A stretch of DNA of 64,000 bases from Escherichia coli (GTDB taxonomy: Bacteria > Pseudomonadota > Gammaproteobacteria > Enterobacterales > Enterobacteriaceae). The notes below the pieces were generated by a model that was given only the letters and a program-made list of their open reading frames with translations, made no database searches and was not told the origin of the DNA. Below are positions 630-16,051 of the stretch, in pieces. The stretch lies in assembly GCF_002854065.1 (NCBI RefSeq), contig NZ_CP024147.1; one strand, written 5' to 3'. Each line of letters opens with the position of its first letter. Position 1 is the stretch's first letter. The translations under genes and the position numbers were made by a program.

Positions 630-1238
630 ATGAAAGTTACATGGACCGTCACGCCTGTGGGGTATCAGCGCATCGCGAAACGATGCCCTTCATGCAACAT
701 TAAACGGGACTTCACGCCGTCAGGTGCATTTCGGGTTAATTCACAAAAGAAGGTGCTGGACGTGTGGAGTATCTATAAATGCACACACTGTGATTACACC
801 TGGAATATCTCCCTGTTTTCGCGTCTGCACGTCAGCAAAATTGACCGCCAGCTTTATCATCGACTAATGACAAACGATGCCGCCACGGTGCAGCACTTTG
901 CATGTGATATCGCGATGCTGAAGCGGAACAATGCAGAGCTATCGGGTCGGCCTGATTTTCACGTTCAGGAGCGCTGGCCGGTAAGCATCACCGCCCACCA
1001 GCGGGTTCGCGTTAGTGTCAGGATCTCCCGTTCATTTCAGGTAAGTCTGCTGTCGATTTTGAAGCAGCAGCTCATGCTGAGCGCTGGTGAGATTCAGAGA
1101 ATGGTGGAAGCAGGGCATATAAGTGGCGTTACACTGAAGTTGCTTAAATCGAGAAAGCTGAAGGCAGCGGAATATCACTTTCAGCTGACTGCGGAAATGT
1201 TATATGCCCGGCGCAGGATCGTTCTGACGCATCGTTAA
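630..1238 (+). CDS. Hypothetical protein with N-terminal CxxC...CxxC zinc-ribbon-like motif
   Basis: 202-aa ORF; CPSC and CTHC pairs near the N-terminus; no recognisable catalytic motif; lies in island cargo next to alpA-like gene. Confidence 0.45.
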   Translation: MKVTWTVTPVGYQRIAKRCPSCNIKRDFTPSGAFRVNSQKKVLDVWSIYKCTHCDYTWNISLFSRLHVSKIDRQLYHRLMTNDAATVQHFACDIAMLKRNNAELSGRPDFHVQERWPVSITAHQRVRVSVRISRSFQVSLLSILKQQLMLSAGEIQRMVEAGHISGVTLKLLKSRKLKAAEYHFQLTAEMLYARRRIVLTHR

Positions 1239-1454: not shown

Positions 1455-1667
1455 TCAATGACCGCGTGAATCGGCAATGCGTTGCTGTAACCATAATTCG
1501 ACTTCACTTTTCTTCCAGCGGGAGCACCGGCCCAGCTTAATTGGCTTCGGGAACAGTCCGTCTTTTATCAACTTATAGAACCATTTATCCGTCAGCCCCG
1601 TTAGCTTTGTGATGAAGCGCATATCCACCAGTTGGTCATCAAGCAAAGAAATTTGTTCTGTCATGAT
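1455..1667 (-). CDS. alpA: AlpA-family prophage transcriptional regulator (excisionase-like)
   Basis: About 70 aa from internal Met (MTEQISLLDDQLVDMRFITKLTGLTDKWFYKLIKDG...SRWKKSEVELWL), typical AlpA-type helix-turn-helix pattern; start chosen by length match to family. Confidence 0.65.
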   Translation of the reverse strand: MMTEQISLLDDQLVDMRFITKLTGLTDKWFYKLIKDGLFPKPIKLGRCSRWKKSEVELWLQQRIADSRGH

Positions 1668-1771: not shown

Positions 1772-2350
1772 TTATAGTGAGCGAGGACGCCCCAGTCCGC
1801 TGGGCGGCGGTACCTCACTGGCTCCGTAGTGATAGTGACCGTGCTTTTGCTCTTCTTTGGCAAGGTAGCTGATGATGTAGCGCAGGTTATCGATGGCTTC
1901 GGTATCATCGTAGTTCACCGGCTTATCAATACTGACGTCATAAGTAGGTTTGTATTCGCAGCGGTTGTAATAGCCTTCTCGTTGCGTTATTTCCCGCCAT
2001 ATTGTTCCGACTCTCTCAGCTATTGGGTAGGTAGCCTGGTTAAGGTGCCTGTCGAGATAGAACACGATATGAGCATGGCAGCCGTGGTCTACAGAGCTCT
2101 CCAGTACCCAGAAATACCCTGCCAGATTTGTGTGCTGCAGGGTGCGTTCAACCAGCATGCGTACCTCTCGCTCTGTTTCGTTCCATGAATGACGTTTAAA
2201 GCGCTCTGTACCTTTCTGATAGAACAGGTCGAGTCGGAGTGCCTGTATTTGGGAATATCGGTTCAGTAGCTGATTCAGGTGGTCATTGAGTAGAGACAGT
2301 AGAAACCAGTTCATCGTGTATCTGGGGTTAAATGGGTAAGGTGTATGCAT
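1772..2350 (-). CDS. Inovirus Gp2-like / YfjJ-YagK family prophage protein
   Basis: ORF extends to 2539, but Met at 2350 has an AAGGA box about 8 nt upstream; sequence resembles YfjJ/YagK family found next to alpA in CP4-type elements. Confidence 0.55.
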   Translation of the reverse strand: MHTPYPFNPRYTMNWFLLSLLNDHLNQLLNRYSQIQALRLDLFYQKGTERFKRHSWNETEREVRMLVERTLQHTNLAGYFWVLESSVDHGCHAHIVFYLDRHLNQATYPIAERVGTIWREITQREGYYNRCEYKPTYDVSIDKPVNYDDTEAIDNLRYIISYLAKEEQKHGHYHYGASEVPPPSGLGRPRSL

Positions 2351-2755
2351 TGATTTATCCTTTGTCAGGTGGAGTACAAAGGATTGGGATGGGATGTAAT
2401 TTTTAAGAGAAGCAGAGATACAGGGAACTGCGTATCCAGGGGAATACAGGCAGGGTTGCTTGTTGGGGAAGGGGCTATGAACAGAGTGGTATAGAAACAG
2501 GGAGTCCCCCTTAATTATACTAAAAACCCAAATGTTCATATCTGCTGTTGAACGATGCTAATGAGGTGAGCACAGGAGGATTGTAGGGTGAAAACAACAG
2601 GAATAATGCAGTAAAATGTCAGGCTTTTATCACAATTAAATCAGTAGGATATCAGTAAAAAATCAGCCATTCCTCAGCCTGTGACCCACCTCCCTCTACC
2701 TAAAAGATGCTCATGCTAATCTGTGTTCAGGAGCCAGAATTAGAGGGAGGAGACG

Positions 2756-3673
2756 ATGTTGCATTACGATATGATCCGCTATGAAATAATGTACCTAAAA
2801 ACGCTGGACAGGCATTTCAATACAGATCACTCGTTACTGTGCAGTACTTATGATAGGCCCGATGATTTTCGACGCTTGATCTCTCAGATACTTGAACGGC
2901 ATTTTCTTGGCGATCAGGACAGAATCAAAATTGCGCGGAAAACACTTAAAGAATGGGCTGACCTGCAACTGATTGATAAAGAATATTTTGATTGTTTCAA
3001 AGGCACACCAAGAGCATCGTGGTTTGCTCACCATTATATTTTTGAATACCCAGTATTACCTGCAGGGTTGAAACTTGGTGGGTTGGGGAATGACGTCGGT
3101 TGTTCAGGTGGTTTTAATTCTCTTTTAATGAACGATAATATCTTCACAAATCTTGATTTCTCTAATTTGAATATCGACCTGGACGATATAGATTGGGACC
3201 TGATAACAAATCCACAGGCCACTGCTTCGAAAAAAACGAAACGCGTTTTCTCCCGATTTTATCTGAACGCGGGAGCAAGTACCGATCTGTACAACCCCAC
3301 TCCGGTAACTGAGCGTGAACTCATCAATGGTGTGATGAGGTACATTGATGAAGCACCATGCTCACTTGGAGATAAGATCACTTATTTCAAAAAACTGCAT
3401 GAGCGCTGGCTTGAGCAATATGATTTTTTTCTAACAGATTTTGACTGGATGTCACGTGATGATGAAACTCAGTTAGTATATCTCTGGGACTATCTCAAAG
3501 GAAAGGGACGAATAGCGAGCTATCTTCGCCCTTATAATACGTCTATGCGTTATGACATGATTATTGCGGCTATGGATGTGTGGAACGCCCAACCTGAAGA
3601 GAAGCTGGAGTTTATTGAGAAGATGAAACATGCCTGGCAGGCAGCGAAATCTTACCGGAAATCTGCTAAATAG
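2756..3673 (+). CDS. Hypothetical protein (305 aa), island cargo, no recognised domain
   Basis: Long uninterrupted ORF with an acidic, Asp-rich central segment (NLNIDLDDIDWDL); convergent with the 158-aa gene and the Gabija operon. Confidence 0.5.
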   Translation: MLHYDMIRYEIMYLKTLDRHFNTDHSLLCSTYDRPDDFRRLISQILERHFLGDQDRIKIARKTLKEWADLQLIDKEYFDCFKGTPRASWFAHHYIFEYPVLPAGLKLGGLGNDVGCSGGFNSLLMNDNIFTNLDFSNLNIDLDDIDWDLITNPQATASKKTKRVFSRFYLNAGASTDLYNPTPVTERELINGVMRYIDEAPCSLGDKITYFKKLHERWLEQYDFFLTDFDWMSRDDETQLVYLWDYLKGKGRIASYLRPYNTSMRYDMIIAAMDVWNAQPEEKLEFIEKMKHAWQAAKSYRKSAK

Positions 3674-4035
3674 CGTTGTGATCGCAGTGATGTCTTGGTC
3701 TGATTTCTCAATGTAGTCATGAATCTGAGTCGACCCAGGGTCCTCTAACTATCTTTTCCTTGTCCCGTTAGGTACAAGCACATACTGTTAAAGATTAATA
3801 TGGCGGGGTATGGACGTCGGAGCTATGCCTACCTTTTAGATCGTTTGCTTCTGACTCGAAGCTTACAAGCTAGCTGATCTGAAGGTCCACTGTGAGCGAG
3901 GAGCGGACACCACGACTCACCAATAACTTGCTGCCCGCTTACGACCCAAAACCACCTATTGTATGTTAATTAATCTAGCAAACAAATGTTTAGCTTTTTA
4001 TCCGGCGAATGAAGCAAGAGAAATTGAACCCATTG

Positions 4036-4512
4036 CTAAGTATTACTGGGATTATTAAAAGGGATAATACTGGCCAATCCGTCATCTACATCAAGACCAT
4101 AGGCAACTGCTATTTCTGCCACAGAGGTACCACACTTTTTTCGCAGTTTAAAAAGCGCTCGCTCAAGCATAGATACTTGCACAGGATGATCAAATCGGAT
4201 GAACTGAGGGGAGCCAACACTGTCACCGAATTCTTGGCATGCCTTTCTCATTTTCCTTAATTGATTTGCTAAATATGAATCGCTCGGTAAACCTTGTAGG
4301 ATTTTAGTCAATTCAGATCTAATGCTGATAACACTCTGAATGCAATGACTAGTATCCTCCATATCGACAGGATTGAAAAGAACTCGCTTGTCCTCAAGAA
4401 AAATGACGATCTTCTTCGCTTCGTCAGCTTCTATTATTGGAGCATTCCACTGAATCCCGAATATAGGGCAGCTAAGGCCTGTAATATTTTTATAGATTCG
4501 TTCAAATTTCAA
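4036..4512 (-). CDS. Hypothetical protein (158 aa), apparent TTG start with strong Shine-Dalgarno
   Basis: AAGGAG box about 6 nt upstream of TTG at 4512..4510; same strand as and downstream of gajA/gajB; no recognisable motif. Confidence 0.5.
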   Translation of the reverse strand: MKFERIYKNITGLSCPIFGIQWNAPIIEADEAKKIVIFLEDKRVLFNPVDMEDTSHCIQSVISIRSELTKILQGLPSDSYLANQLRKMRKACQEFGDSVGSPQFIRFDHPVQVSMLERALFKLRKKCGTSVAEIAVAYGLDVDDGLASIIPFNNPSNT

Positions 4513-4689
4513 AACTCACTCCTTTGATGGACACATAACGCCTATACAGTCATGATGAGAAACGGACTCGGTTCGAGTAATCTGTTAGATAGCATCACTC
4601 GTAACTACTGTAAAAATAGTTGCTATCATGCTTATTGTCACTATAAATATTACTTAATGTCAGTCAGTTAAGAACGATTATTATCCCCC

Positions 4690-4725
4690 ACAATATAAAA
4701 TGTGTGTGGGGGCTATTTTTTCCAA
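4690..4725 (+). terminator. Putative rho-independent terminator (plus-strand orientation)
   Basis: Stem CCCCCACA/TGTGGGGG with about 10-nt loop followed by CTATTTTTT; lies between the 70-aa and 158-aa minus-strand ORFs. Confidence 0.45.
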
Positions 4726-4738
4726 GAGGTAGGCTTCA

Positions 4739-4951
4739 TCAAAGATAAACTACATGAGAAGAACGCCTTAACTTGCTCAAATGGATTGTGTTACAACAGT
4801 CTTGGTAACGTTTGCTATTGGCACATAGCGGGTCTTCAACCCAGTTAGCTCGCCCATTCTGTGCAAGTAGTGGACAATGAATGAAAAGATATTGGGTCGG
4901 ATTAACCTTGCGAAGGCCATCTAAGTCTGTGACGAACATTTCTTCAAGCAT
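4739..4951 (-). CDS. Small Cys-containing hypothetical protein (70 aa)
   Basis: ATG preceded by GAGGG about 7 nt upstream; four Cys residues; directly downstream of gajB; could be non-coding. Confidence 0.3.
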   Translation of the reverse strand: MLEEMFVTDLDGLRKVNPTQYLFIHCPLLAQNGRANWVEDPLCANSKRYQDCCNTIHLSKLRRSSHVVYL

Positions 4952-5085
4952 CTGAGGCCCTCAGCTCGCACCTAGAATTTTAATTTTGATGCATTTTGCC
5001 TTAGCTTGAGCATTGGAATGTGGCCTGATAACCGGTGTTTTCTTTTACTGGCCGTCCACAGACTCGATGACGCATTTATTCCCGA

Positions 5086-6903
5086 CTACCTTAAACCTGC
5101 CCCTCTCATTCGCTCCTCCAGTTCATCCAGAAATGGGGAACGCCCTAGACGCATAGGGCCGTAGCGACCATCAACAAAACCGGAATACAGCATATGCACC
5201 TCGTCCCGTGCGCGGGTCAGCCCCACATAGAAAAGACGTCGGCTTTCACGCAGCTTCTCTGGCGTCTCATTACGCCACGGCAAATTCCCCAGATCTAAGC
5301 CGACCATGATAACCACGTCATATTCGCAACCTTTGGCTGAGTGAAGTGTCAGCAAATTGAGGTGCTCAGGTGAACCGTCACGACCACCTAGGCTCGTGAT
5401 ATCCAACATCGCTAACGCACCGCCTTCGGCAAGTGCTGCAGTCATGCGATCTAGTTGCTCAGCCTGATCAGAAAGCGTTGGTTCAGTTGCCAGCAGGGAA
5501 TCAACGAGACCGTTGCGCAACGACGCGACAAAATCGGATGCAGAATGTTGGTCGGCACGAAGTGCCCAAAGTAGCCTGGTTAACTCCTGCCCCTTACTCC
5601 GGGCGCATGCATCATCCAGCCTTGCCCGATGAAATGCCAGATAACGGTCTATAAGTCCGCGCAGTTGAGGGCGCCCGATACGCCAACCGCCAGCACACCA
5701 TGCTGCGCAATCCTCCACCCAGCTCGTCAAGGCAACTTTGCGATAAGGTGCTGCGGTATCCACACGAATGTAATCAAAACCGCTAGCTGTCACCGCATCG
5801 GCCACAACATCGCCGGCACGGTAGTCCTTGTACAGAATGGCGATATCACCCAGTGTTCGGCCCGGCTTAGCAGCCAACGCAGCAGGAATAATCTGCTCGA
5901 CAGCATAGACAGCCTGATCCCCCAAGCCATCCGGACACAGCTGGAACGCAATGGTTGTCTGGCGGTTTGGGTCGTTTGCGCGATAACCACGAACCTCACC
6001 CAACACCATCTCCGATGCATTCACGATGTCCGCTCCTGATCTATAGTTCAACTGGAGCCGGACTGTTTCAACGTCTCTCCTGCCTGCCAGTTCTAGTAGT
6101 AACGCACCATCGGCACCAGTGAAACCGTAAATAGATTGGTCTGCATCACCCACTGCAAATAAGCGTACGCCTCCCTCGAAAGCCAGACGTTTGACCATAC
6201 GATGGAGTGCCACGCCCAAATCTTGATATTCATCTACCGCAAGGATCGGAAATTTCGCCTGTACTAGGGGCAGAACCCAATCATGCTCAATTATCAGACG
6301 CTGACCAAATATCACCATATCGTCGTAGTCTATCAGCCCTTGCTGCCGCAATGCAGCTTCGTAGGCCTCGGCCCATGCAGCGAGTTCCTCCTCTGTACGC
6401 CAGGCAACGCTGTTGCGATTCAACACCGAACGGCGATGCCGTCCGAGATCAATAGCCTTATAGGGATGGTTTGCGCCAAAGAGACGGTCACCAGATTGTC
6501 GAAGTAACCGTTCGCTCTCGCGCTGAGACGCTACTGACAGCGGAAATGGGATTGGCAGATCGGCCAGTCGCCCATAGGGCATCAACAGATGGCGCAAGCA
6601 GAACCCATGAACGGTTCCAATAAAGAGATTCGGTGCCTCTCTAAGCCCCAGCGCTTCGAGACGACGGGTTAGCTCGCGTGCGCATTCTTGGCTATATGTG
6701 ATACATGCCGCACCACGTGGAGCTTGAACATCCTCAGCTAGGATTCGTGCCAGCTTCAGCACAAGCGTCTTTGTCTTACCACTCCCCGGGCCCGCGAGCA
6801 CCACGCAGTGTCCCTGGGAGTGATACGCGGATAACTGGCCCGGATTCCCGGCCAGCTCGGCAGCCTGAGCTAAGTAGGCTGCACTGACACTACGTGACGG
6901 CAT
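5086..6903 (-). CDS. gajB: Gabija GajB-like UvrD/PcrA-family helicase
   Basis: Walker A VLAGPGSGKTKT, DEYQD box (LAVDEYQDLG) and further UvrD-like motifs; proposed start MPSRSV overlaps gajA stop by about 14 bp; longest ORF extends to 7005, so start is uncertain. Confidence 0.75.
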   Translation of the reverse strand: MPSRSVSAAYLAQAAELAGNPGQLSAYHSQGHCVVLAGPGSGKTKTLVLKLARILAEDVQAPRGAACITYSQECARELTRRLEALGLREAPNLFIGTVHGFCLRHLLMPYGRLADLPIPFPLSVASQRESERLLRQSGDRLFGANHPYKAIDLGRHRRSVLNRNSVAWRTEEELAAWAEAYEAALRQQGLIDYDDMVIFGQRLIIEHDWVLPLVQAKFPILAVDEYQDLGVALHRMVKRLAFEGGVRLFAVGDADQSIYGFTGADGALLLELAGRRDVETVRLQLNYRSGADIVNASEMVLGEVRGYRANDPNRQTTIAFQLCPDGLGDQAVYAVEQIIPAALAAKPGRTLGDIAILYKDYRAGDVVADAVTASGFDYIRVDTAAPYRKVALTSWVEDCAAWCAGGWRIGRPQLRGLIDRYLAFHRARLDDACARSKGQELTRLLWALRADQHSASDFVASLRNGLVDSLLATEPTLSDQAEQLDRMTAALAEGGALAMLDITSLGGRDGSPEHLNLLTLHSAKGCEYDVVIMVGLDLGNLPWRNETPEKLRESRRLFYVGLTRARDEVHMLYSGFVDGRYGPMRLGRSPFLDELEERMRGAGLR

Positions 6904-8674
6904 CGCAGATATACTCCAGTGCTTCACGAATGTAATCCGGGCATACATCCTCCGACACCGAGGGTGCCAGCGCTTGGGCGAACCGCCCTTTGCCAATTCG
7001 CTCAATCAGTTTCAACAACCGGACATTATCAAGCTGGTCCGTGTCATCCACCCACGCCTGTATCCTGTTCAGAGTAGCTCGTCTAGGAGACAATTCCTGC
7101 TCGATAACCAACTTCATGGCTTCGCCCAGTCCACCGGTAAACAGCTCTGGCTCCAGAGTGGTCTCATTGACGAAGCATCCAAAATCTCCGGCACGTGCAA
7201 TCACCTCCTCGGTAGTCATATCATCATGATCAACATCGCTCTCAAGCACGTCTAAGATATTGATAAATCTCTTACGAACCAGCGGCTCTCCATCCTCCTC
7301 AGGATCGCGGTCTGTCAGAATCACATGTGGAATATTGAGTCCCCGCGGCCCTAGGAGCTTCACATACGGAGTGAAATTTGTTCCACCGATCGAGCACACC
7401 GTGATCCCAAGCATATCTAGGGGAATATTAAGAGCATCAGCGAATGCTGGGACAAGAAAGCGTTCAGCATCCCCTTCCACCAAGATCACCCCACGTGAAA
7501 AGAATATTTCGCCGCGAGTGACATCGATATAGCGCTGCAGATCATCTTCGTCCCGCGGCGTAAACGGTGCGTTTGCCGTTGAAACCGCAATCGTCTTCCC
7601 TCCCTCCGGATCATGGCGCAGCAAAACGATGGATCTGATTGGTGTGACGCTGGCGATATGCGGGGAATGGGTGGTCAGGATCGTTGTCAACGGTGTTCCT
7701 TCATCACCATTGTCTCCGTCAGTCCCTAGGAAATAACGGTAAACCAGGCGCTGTACGTGCGGATGTAGGTGCGCTTCCGGCTCCTCGACTACGAAAAACG
7801 TATGGTCTCGTTCTCCGTCATTAACAAGACGATCAAGTTCGAGGCTTTTTAGGGCAAGAAAAATCAGATTAGCTGTCCCCAGACTGGCATCGCCAATGCC
7901 ACGAATGCCACTATCAAGCAGCAAACGCAGGCTACGTAGCAGCGCATCAACGCGAGTCGGTGCAAGTCCGAGCGATACCGGAACGGCATGTTGCTCACCT
8001 GCGATAGCTATCAACCTTTCGCTAATTCGTTCGGCTGTCGCTGCCACCTCATCATGATCAGCCAGTTCCCGTTGAGCCTCATCAACTTGGGTTTGAATCT
8101 CCTCACGAGTCTCGTCGTCCAGAGATGCGGACAGTTCTTCAATAAGCGGTCTTAAGGGTGAATTACGCCAGCTTGAAAGGTCCTTCTCGGCATCACGCAA
8201 CGCGCCTTGAACATCAATGGGCAACATACGGCGAAAGGCACCACCAATATGCATGTCAGGATCAGCTCCACCGAAGATCACATACTCATAATCTTTTAAC
8301 GATTCAGGAGCTCGATTTAACGCGGTTTTGGGCTGAAAGCGGTAGGTAAGACGGGCCACCATCGGAGGCCCCGGATTTAGGACACAGTCATTCAGATGAG
8401 CCATCAATCGGGGATCGTCAGTGAACTCAGTAAGATCCACTGAAATTTCGATGGTCTCCCCCAGTTTGTCTTCGCCCAATCCATCCCAAAAATGTTCAAA
8501 ACCCAGTTGACGGTCACGCTCAGACAACCCTGGGTCAAGAATCAGCTGCAGGCCGCGAATAAAATTGCTCTTGCCAACCTTGTTTTCACCAACAATAACA
8601 ATACTCTCACCCGTTTCAACATCAACATCGGAGAAGTTGGCGAAATTAATTAACCGGATTCGGGAAATCCGCAT
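6890..8674 (-). CDS. gajA: Gabija GajA-like OLD-family ATPase/TOPRIM nuclease
   Basis: 594 aa; N-terminal ABC ATPase P-loop (VGENKVGKSN); C-terminal TOPRIM-like acidic motifs (ILVEGDAE, ILTDRDPEE); immediately upstream of and overlapping the UvrD-like helicase gene. Confidence 0.8.
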   Translation of the reverse strand: MRISRIRLINFANFSDVDVETGESIVIVGENKVGKSNFIRGLQLILDPGLSERDRQLGFEHFWDGLGEDKLGETIEISVDLTEFTDDPRLMAHLNDCVLNPGPPMVARLTYRFQPKTALNRAPESLKDYEYVIFGGADPDMHIGGAFRRMLPIDVQGALRDAEKDLSSWRNSPLRPLIEELSASLDDETREEIQTQVDEAQRELADHDEVAATAERISERLIAIAGEQHAVPVSLGLAPTRVDALLRSLRLLLDSGIRGIGDASLGTANLIFLALKSLELDRLVNDGERDHTFFVVEEPEAHLHPHVQRLVYRYFLGTDGDNGDEGTPLTTILTTHSPHIASVTPIRSIVLLRHDPEGGKTIAVSTANAPFTPRDEDDLQRYIDVTRGEIFFSRGVILVEGDAERFLVPAFADALNIPLDMLGITVCSIGGTNFTPYVKLLGPRGLNIPHVILTDRDPEEDGEPLVRKRFINILDVLESDVDHDDMTTEEVIARAGDFGCFVNETTLEPELFTGGLGEAMKLVIEQELSPRRATLNRIQAWVDDTDQLDNVRLLKLIERIGKGRFAQALAPSVSEDVCPDYIREALEYICDAVT

Positions 8675-9229
8675 TACTGCCTCCCTATCTTTTTAATTAT
8701 CTTCCCAAAATAAGAGTAGAACTCAAACCACAAGAGACTGCCTGGCACGACCAAATTTGCTGAGGGATACGGTTGCGATCAGAACGGTACTTGGTCATTG
8801 CACATTTTTTACTGTTCAAATCTATGCGTCCAACGAAGGTAACAACCTATCGTAACAGAGAGCTAAAACATGCCTATGATCCATCTCACATAGTGGCTGT
8901 TTGTCGTCACAGTCTTACAATGCACTCTGTGCAATGCATTACTCCCATTGGCCGACCAGACCGATGAACTGGCACGGCGGTGTGCTTCACACACTCTAGC
9001 GATACGGCACAATATCAACAGACACTGACTGGCCTCGTCAAAATAGTACAGTACAGACTTAGCACCGTCTGACTTTGGCGCTAAGCGGAGATCTTTCAGT
9101 CTTGGACTGCACAAAGTCCTTTGCGTTAATCTAAAATTCCAAATAATTTCAGACAGATATTATCTCATTGAATCCCCGCCTTCCTGACTGGATCGCGGGG
9201 TTTTTAATTTTTCACGCTGAGACTTCTGT

Positions 9230-10105
9230 ATGAATAAACCTGACGGCCTTCAGGCCTTTGAACAACCGCTTGCGTCGCTTCCGTGCACACTTCGCCAGCT
9301 TATTCTTGAACGTATCCAGAACCTGACCCATTACGAGCCGGTGATTGGAATCATGGGCAAAAGTGGTACAGGTAAATCCTCTCTCTGCAACGAACTTTTC
9401 CGGGGCGAGGTGTCCCCGGTGAGTGACGTGAATGCCTGTACTCGCGACGTGCTGCGTTTCCGGTTACGCAGTGGGCGTCACAGCCTGGTGATTGTTGATT
9501 TACCGGGCGTGGGCGAAAACGGGCAGCGGGATCAAGAATACCGTGCCCTGTACCGTCGAATCCTGCCGGAGCTGGACCTGGTGCTGTGGGTCATTAAGGC
9601 CGATGATCGGGCACTAACCGTGGACGAGCAGTTCTGGCACGGTGTGATGCAAACTTACAGGCAAAAGGTACTGTTCGTGATTAACCAGGCCGACAAAATC
9701 GAACCCTGCCATGAATGGGATACCCTCACCAGCAAACCTTCACCGCACCAACTGGGAAATCTTAAAGCGAAGCAGGCTGCGATTATGGTGATGTTTAAAC
9801 CGCATCATCCGGTCTGTGTGGTGTCAGCCCGCACTGGATGGGGCATTGAGGAGATGGTGGCAGCCATGATGCGCTGTCTGCCTGACCGCGCCACCAGCCC
9901 GGTGGTGACACAACTGCACAGGAAACTCTGCACAGAGCCGGTAAAGTCGCAGGCTCGTGACAGTTTCGGTGAAGCTGTGGGCCGGGTTTTCGATACCGCA
10001 GAATCATCTTCGTTCCTGTCTACATCGCTGAAAACGGTGATTCGTAGCGTGCGTGATGCGGTGGTGTCGGTCGCACGGGCCGTCTGGGACTGGATATTCT
10101 TCTGA
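9230..10105 (+). CDS. Prophage-associated GTPase, YkfA/YfjP/YeeP family
   Basis: 291 aa; P-loop GKSGTGKSS and DLPG motif; this family is typical of CP4-type islands. Confidence 0.75.
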   Translation: MNKPDGLQAFEQPLASLPCTLRQLILERIQNLTHYEPVIGIMGKSGTGKSSLCNELFRGEVSPVSDVNACTRDVLRFRLRSGRHSLVIVDLPGVGENGQRDQEYRALYRRILPELDLVLWVIKADDRALTVDEQFWHGVMQTYRQKVLFVINQADKIEPCHEWDTLTSKPSPHQLGNLKAKQAAIMVMFKPHHPVCVVSARTGWGIEEMVAAMMRCLPDRATSPVVTQLHRKLCTEPVKSQARDSFGEAVGRVFDTAESSSFLSTSLKTVIRSVRDAVVSVARAVWDWIFF

Positions 10106-15043: not shown

Positions 15044-16051
15044 ATGGGCAACAGAATGTGGATGATTCGCGGTGACGGCGGCAAGCTCTATGACGATTTT
15101 CGCGATAAGCAAATTGTAGGCATCGGTTGGTCTCAGCTGGCTCCATTAGTCAAACCCGGCCTGTCCCGAGCCCAGTTACTCGCCTTATACCAGGAGGCAG
15201 ATCCCTTAACAAAGCTGGGAACAGCCCGTTCTGGTGCATCGCAGGTCTGGCGTTTTGTGAATGAGATCCAAAAGGGTGATTGGGTTATTACCTATTCGCC
15301 AGCCAACCGTACTTATTTGCTAGGCAAAGTCACATCCGACTTCCAATATCATCCTGAATGGGTGGAAGAGGGGATGGGGATCGCTCGGCAGGTTAAATGG
15401 AATACTCAAGAAATCGACCGCGATAGACTGTCTGTTGCTACCAAAAACACATTGGGTTCTACGCTGACGGTTTTTCAGCTTCCAGAATATGCGCTAGAAG
15501 AGCTTTTGCAGGATAAGAAACCCACTATAGATGTAATTACTCAGAATCCAGTTGCAATGGATGAAGATGAGGTCGTTTCTGATCCGCTTCGCGATATGGA
15601 AATGCTGGCGTTTGAGGGTATCAAAGATCGTATTAACTCTCTTGATTGGGACGAGATGCAAAATCTTGTTGCCGGAGTTTTACGCAGTATGGGCTATAAA
15701 ACGCAGGTTTCACCTGCGGGAGCCGATCGGGGTAAAGACATCATTGCTTCACCTGATGGGTTCGGTTTTGAAAATCCGCGTATTATCGTTGAGGTAAAGC
15801 ACCGCAGGGAACAGATGGGAAGCCAACAGATACGCAGCTTTATCGGCGGTCGCCATAAAGACGATCGCGGGCTTTATGTCAGTACAGGGGGTTTTACGAA
15901 AGATGCTCGATATGAAGCCGACCGTTCGACGATACCACTGACGCTCTGGACACTTGATGATCTCGTCCGTGCGCTTATTGAGAACTACGAACAAGTTGAT
16001 ATCGAGACTAAACTTTTGGTGCCTCTGAAGAAAACTTTCCTGCCTGCCTGA
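15044..16051 (+). CDS. Mrr-cat (PD-(D/E)xK) restriction-endonuclease-like protein with an uncharacterised N-terminal domain
   Basis: C-terminal half matches the Mrr catalytic core pattern (GADRGKDIIA...IIVEVKHRRE...QQIRSFIGG...GLYVSTGGFTKDA); N-terminal ~160 aa does not look like the K-12 Mrr N-terminal domain. Confidence 0.65.
   Translation: MGNRMWMIRGDGGKLYDDFRDKQIVGIGWSQLAPLVKPGLSRAQLLALYQEADPLTKLGTARSGASQVWRFVNEIQKGDWVITYSPANRTYLLGKVTSDFQYHPEWVEEGMGIARQVKWNTQEIDRDRLSVATKNTLGSTLTVFQLPEYALEELLQDKKPTIDVITQNPVAMDEDEVVSDPLRDMEMLAFEGIKDRINSLDWDEMQNLVAGVLRSMGYKTQVSPAGADRGKDIIASPDGFGFENPRIIVEVKHRREQMGSQQIRSFIGGRHKDDRGLYVSTGGFTKDARYEADRSTIPLTLWTLDDLVRALIENYEQVDIETKLLVPLKKTFLPA

What the first reader, a model, noticed from the sequence alone, without database searches (positions are those of the whole stretch)
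2756..3673. 305-aa orphan protein with an Asp-rich central segment, convergent on the Gabija cluster
A long clean ORF in island cargo with no motif I can assign. It lies between the Gp2/YfjJ-like gene and the Gabija-associated orphans. It has an acidic, repeat-like core (NLNIDLDDIDWDL) and a basic C-terminus. It could be a defense or anti-defense effector, or a component of a multi-gene system with its neighbours.
Basis: inference. Interest (0 to 1): 0.6.

Follow-up and report, generated by a model that had tools for sequence, protein, structure and literature searches.

The report
Island backbone gene beside defence hotspot
The 305-residue protein is a real, conserved but uncharacterised housekeeping gene of a CP4-57-like E. 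coli genomic island, not a Gabija partner: it borders the slot where the island swaps defence systems, and it belongs to an unnamed family of probable DNA-binding regulators but lacks their DNA-binding tail.

Summary
The ORF (2756-3673, +, 305 aa) is real. It has a strong Shine-Dalgarno and is under purifying selection (dN/dS 0.09-0.30). It is intact in all 15 of 5,426 complete E. coli genomes that carry it. The "Asp-rich core" exists but lies in a disordered, poorly conserved linker between two well-folded all-helical domains, and those domains are internal duplicates (hhalign 98%).

There is no hit in Pfam, NCBIfam, PADLOC, PHROGs or PDB sequences. An exhaustive profile search finds an unnamed gammaproteobacterial superfamily (185 clusters). 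In the alignment, 118 of 133 members add a C-terminal ribbon-helix-helix. The query's subfamily stops just before it, and no separate RHH ORF exists in these islands.

In all 17 distinct contexts examined the gene is transcribed divergently from an AlpA/YfjJ(Gp2-like) module. In the 15 Enterobacterales islands the YeeP/YfjP-type GTPase is the next backbone gene downstream. The interval before the GTPase is empty in four islands (Yersinia, Buttiauxella, Citrobacter) and holds swapped cargo elsewhere: two Gabija alleles, RT+PRTase, FRG, DUF2971.

So it is an island backbone gene flanking a defence hotspot. It is probably a regulator-derived protein of the island's control region. The Gabija and effector readings are not supported. 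Function remains inferred.

The parts
2756..3673 (+). CDS of the 305-aa protein (RefSeq WP_001756917.1, 'hypothetical protein')
2756..3055 (+). N-terminal helical domain (aa 1-100, six helices, pLDDT >90). Residues 30-101 are an internal duplicate of residues 181-250
3056..3280 (+). Variable, mostly disordered linker (aa 101-175). It holds the Asp-rich stretch NDNIFTNLDFSNLNIDLDDIDWDLITN (aa 126-152)
3281..3670 (+). C-terminal helical domain (aa 176-305, five helices). It is the most conserved part (PEEKLEFIEKMKHAWQ) and ends in a basic helix. In 118 of 133 relatives a ribbon-helix-helix follows here; in this protein it does not
2741..2750 (+). Shine-Dalgarno region (TAGAGGGAGG). A 10-nt complementary stretch at 2689-2698 could pair with it, but the pairing is not conserved
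2641..2677 (+). Phased array of four TCAG/ATCAG motifs at an 11-12 bp period, with degenerate copies from about 2607. It lies 79-115 nt upstream of the start codon. Candidate protein-binding or bent-DNA site
2507..2539 (.). 33-nt block that is invariant, bar one position in one E. coli strain, between E. coli, Buttiauxella and Yersinia in the divergent intergenic region. It holds overlapping -10-like hexamers (TATACT on +, TATAAT on -). Inferred divergent promoter/control site
1772..2350 (-). YagK/YfjJ (inovirus Gp2-like) gene, transcribed divergently from the 305-aa gene
1455..1664 (-). AlpA-family HTH regulator, downstream of the YfjJ-like gene
4036..4512 (-). DUF6650 gene (PHROG 29952). This is cargo and is found alone in P2-like prophages elsewhere
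5086..6903 (-). GajB helicase of Gabija (cargo)
6890..8674 (-). GajA ATPase-nuclease of Gabija (cargo)
9230..10105 (+). YeeP/YfjP-type GTPase (MMR_HSR1). It is the next backbone gene and lies directly after the 305-aa gene in cargo-free islands

Best explanation
The gene is a backbone (maintenance/control) gene of a CP4-57/CP4-44-like chromosomal integrative island of Enterobacterales. It sits at the island's divergent control region. To the left run the YfjJ (Gp2-like rolling-circle-initiator-like) and AlpA genes. To the right run this gene and then the YeeP-type GTPase, DUF932, WYL regulator, antirestriction, RadC and CbeA/CbtA genes. The interval between this gene and the GTPase gene is a cargo slot, and here it happens to hold DUF6650 plus Gabija. 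The protein is built from two homologous helical bundles joined by a disordered acidic linker, and it ends in a conserved basic helix. It is a derived, truncated member of an unnamed superfamily whose typical members continue into a ribbon-helix-helix DNA-binding domain. By position, those members look like the element's own transcription regulator for the divergent AlpA/YfjJ promoter, analogous to CopG controlling the Rep gene of rolling-circle plasmids. Inferred mechanism for this RHH-less form: it keeps the oligomerisation or partner-binding module and the basic helix. It would act in control of the island's early genes through protein contacts, or through weak DNA contacts at the conserved intergenic sites, rather than as a stand-alone sequence-specific repressor. 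Shown: gene reality, selection, domain architecture, family membership, absence of the RHH, constant synteny, variable cargo. Inferred: any regulatory activity and its targets.
For: The gene is real and under selection. Synteny is constant in 17 distinct contexts. These are 8 E. coli arrangements, Buttiauxella, Yersinia enterocolitica, Y. rochesterensis, two Budvicia islands, two Citrobacter-type islands and two metagenomic contigs. In all of them the gene diverges from an AlpA/YfjJ operon. In the 15 Enterobacterales islands the GTPase is the next backbone gene. In four islands the gap to the GTPase is only about 80-115 bp. Cargo varies between lineages, and K-12 CP4-57 has AbpAB and RnlAB in the equivalent yfjJ-yfjP interval. 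The superfamily has 185 clusters at E<=1e-3. The RHH tail is present in 118 of 133 aligned members, with sub-threshold-to-significant Pfam hits to RepB-RCR_reg, RHH_1, MatP_C and RHH_7. The best PDB sequence matches of the family profile are MatP (E 0.003) and CopG (E 0.05). The AlphaFold model has pLDDT 84 and pTM 0.78 and shows two helical domains plus a disordered linker. Internal duplication is supported by hhalign at 98% probability, E 2e-13. There is no separate family-type RHH ORF in ten RHH-less islands. There is no match in 72,556 plasmids or 50,697 phages. Conserved non-coding elements lie in the control region: a near-invariant 33-nt block, and a phased TCAG array that is unique in each locus (0 expected in shuffles) and present in 8 of 10 RHH-less loci.
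Confidence: 0.45

Rival explanations
1. Defence or anti-defence effector, or an accessory subunit of the neighbouring Gabija/DUF6650 genes. In this reading the acidic linker would act as a DNA mimic or phage-sensing element.
For: The gene lies directly beside a defence slot, and 9 of the 15 E. coli carriers appear to have Gabija there (two alleles; 19KM1766N is assigned by similarity to C51, not inspected). The rightward backbone also carries an antirestriction gene, so an 'establishment/anti-defence' role for the leading genes is conceivable. The stretch at residues 126-152 is acidic.
Against: There is no PADLOC hit. The gene is present without Gabija in about 6 of 15 E. coli genomes and in every non-E. 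coli island examined. Gabija is a complete two-gene system by PADLOC. DUF6650 occurs alone in prophages. The acidic stretch is disordered, fast-evolving (dN/dS up to 1.1) and absent from Budvicia and distant relatives. Overall pI is 5.9, unlike strongly acidic DNA mimics.
Confidence: 0.12
2. Partner or regulator (GAP/GEF/adaptor-like) of the downstream YeeP/YfjP-type GTPase, forming a two-gene module at the head of the rightward operon.
For: The GTPase is the next backbone gene in all 15 Enterobacterales islands examined. It is on the same strand, and the gap is only about 80-115 bp where no cargo is present. One submitter named the Budvicia homologue 'Rho GTPase-activating protein'. Two arginines (R8, R86) are nearly invariant across the superfamily.
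Confidence: 0.15
3. MatP-like DNA organiser or replication/transfer accessory factor. In this reading the helical bundle plus basic helix binds the phased repeats in the intergenic region and assists the Gp2-like YfjJ protein at an origin, as relaxosome or RCR accessory proteins do.
Confidence: 0.13
4. Decaying remnant: a truncated regulator gene that lost its DNA-binding domain and now has no function.
For: The RHH is missing relative to 89% of aligned relatives. The gene is rare in E. coli (15 of 5,426 genomes). K-12-type islands do without it.
Against: The truncated form is a coherent clade across at least eight genera, always full length. dN/dS is 0.07-0.24 in the C-domain and 0.087 against Yersinia at saturated dS. 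The start, Shine-Dalgarno and upstream elements are conserved. None of the 15 E. coli copies is disrupted.
Confidence: 0.05

Closest known systems
CopG/RepB-RCR_reg-type ribbon-helix-helix regulators of mobile elements (Pfam PF01402, PF10723)
   Same: Relatives of the query end in a strand-helix-helix segment that scores against these families. Like CopG next to RepB, they are encoded beside a rolling-circle-initiator-like gene (YfjJ/Gp2-like) at a divergent promoter region.
   Different: The query has no RHH at all. Even the relatives carry about 250 extra N-terminal residues (two helical bundles) that known CopG-like proteins lack, and their RHH is C-terminal.
MatP (macrodomain Ter protein; PDB 4d8j, 3vea, 7nyw)
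   Different: The similarity is carried mostly by the RHH, which the query lacks. There is no Pfam MatP hit, no C-terminal coiled coil, a duplicated N-terminal bundle, an island-borne gene, and no MatP hit for the RHH-bearing relative's model.
Death-fold domains (PYD/CARD/DED) and the DUF416/YjaG helical bundle (PDB 4n1j, 4jqw, 2q9r)
   Different: Z stays below 8, sequence identity is 3-14%, and there is no sequence-profile support. Helical bundles match at this level by topology alone.
Backbone genes of E. coli K-12 cryptic islands CP4-57, CP4-6 and CP4-44 (alpA, yfjJ/yagK, yfjP/ykfA/yeeP, yfjQ, yfjR, yfjX, yfjY, yfjZ-ypjF)
   Same: The neighbours are the same set of genes. There is the same kind of variable defence cargo between the YfjJ module and the GTPase (AbpAB and RnlAB in CP4-57).
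   Different: K-12 islands have no homologue of this gene. YfjH (318 aa) and YagM (284 aa), the uncharacterised proteins of similar size in those islands, show no similarity. Here the YfjJ-AlpA pair is inverted relative to the GTPase operon.

Membership tests
Gabija system (GajA/GajB plus any accessory gene) | Obligate co-occurrence with gajA and gajB | tested here: not met
   The gene occurs without Gabija in E. coli W284, SE11, FDAARGOS_1373, R2 and PapM-32-1, and in Yersinia, Buttiauxella, Budvicia and Citrobacter islands.
Gabija system (GajA/GajB plus any accessory gene) | Match to a defence-system protein model | tested here: not met
   PADLOC gives 0 families at E<=1 for the protein, whereas its neighbours score GajA 3.7e-233 and GajB 2.3e-258.
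Ribbon-helix-helix (CopG/Arc/MetJ) DNA-binding regulators | A strand-helix-helix DNA-binding motif in the protein | tested here: not met
   The protein ends 11 residues after the conserved Trp294. Pfam finds nothing even at E<=10. 118 of 133 relatives have an extension of at least 45 residues with RHH hits. There is no separate RHH ORF in the island.
Ribbon-helix-helix (CopG/Arc/MetJ) DNA-binding regulators | Sequence-specific operator binding and repression | not testable with these tools
   This needs EMSA, ChIP or reporter assays.
MatP family | MatP N-terminal four-helix bundle (Pfam PF06303) | tested here: not met
   None of 45 family members gives a PF06303 hit. hhalign of the helical part alone aligns 11 columns at 17% probability.
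MatP family | Fold similarity to solved MatP | tested here: inconclusive
MatP family | RHH plus C-terminal coiled coil | tested here: not met
   Both are absent from the query.
Death-fold superfamily (PYD/CARD/DED, bacterial death-like domains) | Six-helix death-fold bundle with significant structural match | tested here: inconclusive
Unnamed gammaproteobacterial superfamily (two helical bundles, with or without a C-terminal RHH) found here | Profile match over both helical domains with the near-invariant residues R8, R86, D198, W231, Y246, P259, D274 and W294 | tested here: met
   The query is the seed. 185 clusters match at E<=1e-3. Foldseek finds about 57 AFDB50 proteins at E<=1e-3, all but one annotated 'uncharacterized' and the named ones all Gammaproteobacteria.
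Unnamed gammaproteobacterial superfamily (two helical bundles, with or without a C-terminal RHH) found here | Gene placed divergently from an AlpA-containing operon of an integrative element | tested here: met
   This holds in 17 of 17 distinct contexts, including distant RHH-bearing members.
CP4-57/CP4-44-like island backbone | Conserved position relative to backbone genes regardless of cargo | tested here: met
   The position is always between the YfjJ/AlpA module and the YeeP-type GTPase, while the cargo differs between lineages (same calls as above).
RhoGAP (the name given by one submitter to the Budvicia homologue) | RhoGAP domain (Pfam PF00620) or fold | tested here: not met

The most novel reading that the evidence does not exclude
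The RHH-less protein is a non-DNA-binding 'decoy' or adaptor derived from an island master regulator. Its two death-fold-like bundles would oligomerise with RHH-bearing paralogues of rival CP4-like islands, or with the downstream YeeP-type GTPase. That would give a new kind of inter-element interference or establishment switch, one that also gates the adjacent defence-cargo slot.
Probability: 0.07. Interest if true: 0.7.

Novelty: new variant of a known kind. Interest (0 to 1): 0.33.

Why it matters
It removes a false lead, because this gene should not be scored as part of Gabija or as a candidate defence gene by guilt-by-association. It also gives a practical landmark. The pair 'this gene ... 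YeeP-type GTPase' brackets a slot in enterobacterial CP4-like islands that holds Gabija, an RT+PRTase pair, and FRG and DUF2971 proteins in different strains, so it can be used to mine new defence cargo. Finally, it defines an unnamed and uncharacterised superfamily: at least 185 clusters at 50% identity, made of two duplicated helical bundles plus a C-terminal RHH. This family appears to be the resident control protein of AlpA/YfjJ-type integrative elements in Gammaproteobacteria, elements whose regulation and mobility are poorly understood.

Tried and rejected
1. Direct family assignment failed. Pfam, NCBIfam, PADLOC, PHROGs and PDB sequence searches with the single protein all returned nothing.

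2. I tested identity with the similar-sized K-12 island proteins YfjH and YagM. hhalign probability was below 0.3% with both a narrow and a wide profile, so this was rejected.

5. The 'RhoGAP' submitter annotation has no support.

6. An anti-Shine-Dalgarno hairpin (2689-2698 pairing with 2741-2750) is predicted in the window sequence. It has z = -1.0 against shuffles and no conserved consensus structure (-0.4 kcal/mol), so it was rejected as a conserved riboregulator.

7. I looked for a split or frameshifted RHH. No family-type RHH ORF was found in six-frame translations of ten RHH-less islands.

8. I looked for a second family member in the 64-kb window and found none.

9. tblastn found nothing on plasmids or in phage genomes.

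10. Literature searches found no description of this gene or family. They found only general descriptions of AlpA/Gp2-like islands.

Full report
OBSERVATION

The window holds an ATG-initiated ORF at exactly 2756-3673 on the + strand, 305 codons. AGGGAGGAG lies 6 nt upstream of the start. The quoted peptide NLNIDLDDIDWDL and the basic C-terminus are present.

The window is E. coli chromosome. The 2.2-kb region is 100% identical to strains 744, VTB96935v and XJ23PTE1, where RefSeq annotates the same CDS as 'hypothetical protein' WP_001756917.1.

The ORF is a real gene. Full-length 305-aa orthologues exist in Citrobacter, Klebsiella, Morganella, Yersinia and Buttiauxella, and longer ones in Budvicia. 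Nei-Gojobori dN/dS is 0.18-0.30 against five other E. coli alleles and 0.087 against Yersinia. The C-terminal domain is the most constrained (0.07-0.24) and the linker the least (0.23-1.1). All 15 copies in 5,426 complete E. coli genomes are intact, single-copy and chromosomal. tblastn finds nothing in 72,556 plasmids or 50,697 phage genomes.

ANATOMY OF THE PROTEIN

An alignment of the subfamily shows three parts: a conserved N-terminal block (about residues 1-100), a variable middle (about 101-175) and a very conserved C-terminal block (about 176-305). The motif PEEKLEFIEKMKHAWQ is invariant in the C-terminal block.

AlphaFold2, run on a 133-sequence alignment, gives a confident model with pLDDT 84.4 and pTM 0.78. 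It has six helices in residues 4-97 and five helices in residues 186-304. Residues 108-139 and 160-171 fall below pLDDT 50.

Whole-protein pI is 5.9.

A profile-profile comparison of the N-terminal slice against the C-terminal slice of the family alignment gives 98% probability, E 2e-13, over 69 columns. Residues 30-101 align with residues 181-250. The protein is therefore an internal duplication of one helical unit.

The nearly invariant residues of the wider family are R8, R86, D198, W231, Y246, P259, D274 and W294. This does not resemble any catalytic signature I recognise (inference).

FAMILY

The single protein hits nothing in Pfam, NCBIfam, PADLOC, PHROGs or PDB sequences. The word-indexed search found only 27 clusters, all Enterobacterales.

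The exhaustive profile search found 185 representative clusters at E<=1e-3. Most are 280-330 residues long and align to query residues about 180-300. Foldseek against AFDB50 independently recovers about 57 proteins at E<=1e-3. All but one are annotated 'uncharacterized', and every named source organism is a gammaproteobacterium (Enterobacterales, Vibrio, Moritella, Acinetobacter, Moraxella and others). The exception is named 'CopG family transcriptional regulator'.

In the 133-sequence alignment, 118 members continue for at least 45 residues past the conserved Trp. The extension is a basic linker followed by a strand-helix-helix pattern (…KMKKAWSQKKHRD…KKAYNIxMSxDVKxKLDxLAKxxxKKINETLExLIxxEY). 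The 12 members of the query's subfamily, plus three others, stop at the basic tail.

Pfam scans of 45 members hit RepB-RCR_reg, RHH_1, MatP_C and RHH_7 on that extension. One member each reaches E<=1e-3 for RepB-RCR_reg and RHH_1; 7 and 5 members respectively reach E<=0.1. NCBIfam and PHROG scans give only sub-threshold RHH-type hits.

Six-frame searches with an HMM of the tail find it in every RHH-bearing locus. They find it in none of ten RHH-less islands. The domain is genuinely absent from those islands, not split off or frameshifted.

STRUCTURAL AND REMOTE-HOMOLOGY LEADS

I therefore keep MatP as an architectural resemblance for the relatives (bundle, basic helix, RHH), not as family membership for this protein.

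GENOMIC CONTEXT

I examined 17 distinct contexts.

In E. coli the left neighbours never change. They are an AlpA-type HTH gene and a YagK/YfjJ (inovirus Gp2-like) gene, both transcribed away from the 305-aa gene.

To the right, the next conserved gene is always a YeeP/YfjP-type GTPase. It is followed by a WYL regulator, DUF932, antirestriction, RadC and CbeA/CbtA genes.

What lies between the 305-aa gene and the GTPase differs between strains:
- DUF6650 plus Gabija: this window and five other records.
- A different Gabija allele without DUF6650: C51 and GPEC617.
- Reverse transcriptase plus phosphoribosyltransferase-like protein: PapM-32-1.
- An FRG-domain protein: R2.
- DUF2971 and two hypotheticals: SE11.
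- Three hypotheticals: W284.
- An ATPase fragment: FDAARGOS_1373.

In Yersinia enterocolitica, Y. rochesterensis, Buttiauxella and Citrobacter arsenatis the GTPase gene follows directly, after about 80-115 bp. Budvicia has two tiny genes in between.

RHH-bearing relatives occupy the same slot in Citrobacter and Budvicia islands. More distant ones sit divergently from an x-AlpA-YfjJ operon, and one of them lies next to the integrase.

In K-12 CP4-57 the equivalent interval between yfjJ and yfjP holds AbpAB and RnlAB. K-12 islands have no homologue of this gene. YfjH and YagM are unrelated to it.

PADLOC confirms that the neighbours here are a complete GajA/GajB pair. DUF6650 also occurs on its own in a P2-like prophage tail-region slot in more than 20 other E. 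coli genomes.

The conclusion is that the gene is island backbone and forms one border of a defence-cargo hotspot. Its proximity to Gabija is positional.

CONTROL REGION

The 405-bp divergent intergenic region contains a 33-nt block (2507-2539) that is invariant, bar one position in one E. coli strain, between E. coli, Buttiauxella and Yersinia, although the flanks have diverged. The block carries overlapping -10-like hexamers on the two strands.

Between 79 and 115 nt upstream of the start codon lies an array of four TCAG/ATCAG motifs at an 11-12 bp period (2641-2677), with degenerate copies further upstream. It is the only such array in the 64-kb window. None appeared in 200 shuffles. It recurs at the same place in 8 of 10 RHH-less loci, with seven copies in Budvicia, but not in RHH-bearing loci.

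These are candidate regulatory sites. Which protein binds them, if any, is unknown.

A predicted hairpin that would sequester the Shine-Dalgarno is not conserved and is no more stable than shuffles.

MECHANISM

Shown:
- A selected, two-bundle helical protein with a basic C-terminal helix.
- Membership of a superfamily whose typical members carry an RHH.
- Fixed position at the divergent control region of an AlpA/YfjJ-type integrative island.
- Independence from the cargo.

Inferred:
- The ancestral family protein is the element's own RHH regulator of the divergent AlpA/YfjJ promoter. This would be analogous to CopG controlling the initiator gene of rolling-circle plasmids (established knowledge of pMV158-type CopG/RepB).
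- The RHH-less subfamily keeps the oligomerisation or partner-binding module. It would act through protein contacts or weak DNA contacts in control of the island's early genes.

I give this 0.45. The narrower statement 'backbone gene, not a Gabija component' I hold at about 0.9.

Rivals are a partner of the adjacent GTPase (0.15), a MatP-like or replication accessory factor (0.13), a defence or anti-defence effector (0.12) and a decaying remnant (0.05).

NOVELTY AND SCORE

Neither the gene nor its superfamily is named in Pfam, NCBIfam, PHROGs or PADLOC, and I found no paper describing it. A 2025 paper describes Pseudomonas islands with the same AlpA, Gp2-like and RadC core and variable defence cargo, but not this protein (PMC12595487).

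The kind of thing, a mobile-element control protein beside a cargo hotspot, is familiar. The two-bundle architecture and the RHH-less derivative are new variants of it.

The practical value is as a landmark for a defence hotspot, and as a warning against guilt-by-association. Interest is 0.33.

Noticed in passing
window 2641-2677 (degenerate copies from about 2607); L006 9835-9904: There is a phased array of TCAG/ATCAG motifs at an 11-12 bp period upstream of the gene, with 4 copies here and 7 in Budvicia. It is unique in each 15-64 kb locus, none is expected in shuffles, and it is kept in 8 of 10 RHH-less islands but absent from RHH-bearing ones. It could be an operator array or phased A-tract bent DNA.
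   Followed up: partly
window 2507-2539: A 33-nt block (CCCTTAATTATACTAAAAACCCAAATGTTCAT) is invariant, bar one position in one E. coli strain, across E. coli, Buttiauxella and Yersinia in otherwise diverged intergenic DNA. It has overlapping -10-like hexamers on opposite strands, so it is a possible divergent promoter switch.
   Followed up: partly
window 4036-4512 (-); L029 6024-6500: The DUF6650 gene (PHROG 29952, function unknown) next to Gabija here also sits alone in a P2-like prophage between tail-sheath and tail-fibre-assembly genes in more than 20 other E. coli genomes. It behaves as an independent moron or candidate defence gene, not as a Gabija accessory.
   Followed up: partly
window 3674-9229 and the equivalent intervals in L002, L003, L021, L022, L023, L027, L028: The interval between the 305-aa gene and the YeeP-type GTPase gene is a cargo hotspot. 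It holds two Gabija alleles, RT plus a PRTase-like protein, an FRG protein, DUF2971 and several unannotated genes in different strains. K-12 CP4-57 has AbpAB and RnlAB in the equivalent place. The unannotated cargo genes are candidates for new defence systems.
   Followed up: partly
window 15044-16051 (+): The gene annotated 'restriction endonuclease' just beyond the CbtA toxin matches the PADLOC candidate system PDC-S02 (E 1.8e-81). A tyrosine recombinase gene follows at about 16.4 kb, so a second defence-type cargo site may exist at the other end of the island.
   Followed up: no
window 630-1238 (+): A DUF1062 protein is constant on the far side of AlpA in all E. coli carriers. It has a weak zinc-ribbon-type hit to VdcD (E 2e-5, below cut-off) and a weak PADLOC DrmA hit (E 0.002). 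Whether it belongs to the island or to the chromosome was not resolved.
   Followed up: no
L017/L018 1-7993; L009 3888-8280; L013 534-7979: A second cargo site lies beyond AlpA in related islands. It holds dynamin-like GTPase pairs with DUF6361 and a helicase (Yersinia), a 1,269-aa SIR2 protein with a deaminase-like gene (Buttiauxella), and KAP NTPase, PLD and a large helicase (metagenome).
   Followed up: no
P0027 (Budvicia aquatica homologue, L006 10001-11089): One submitter names this homologue 'Rho GTPase-activating protein'. No Pfam or fold evidence supports the name, although the gene does sit upstream of a GTPase gene.
   Followed up: yes
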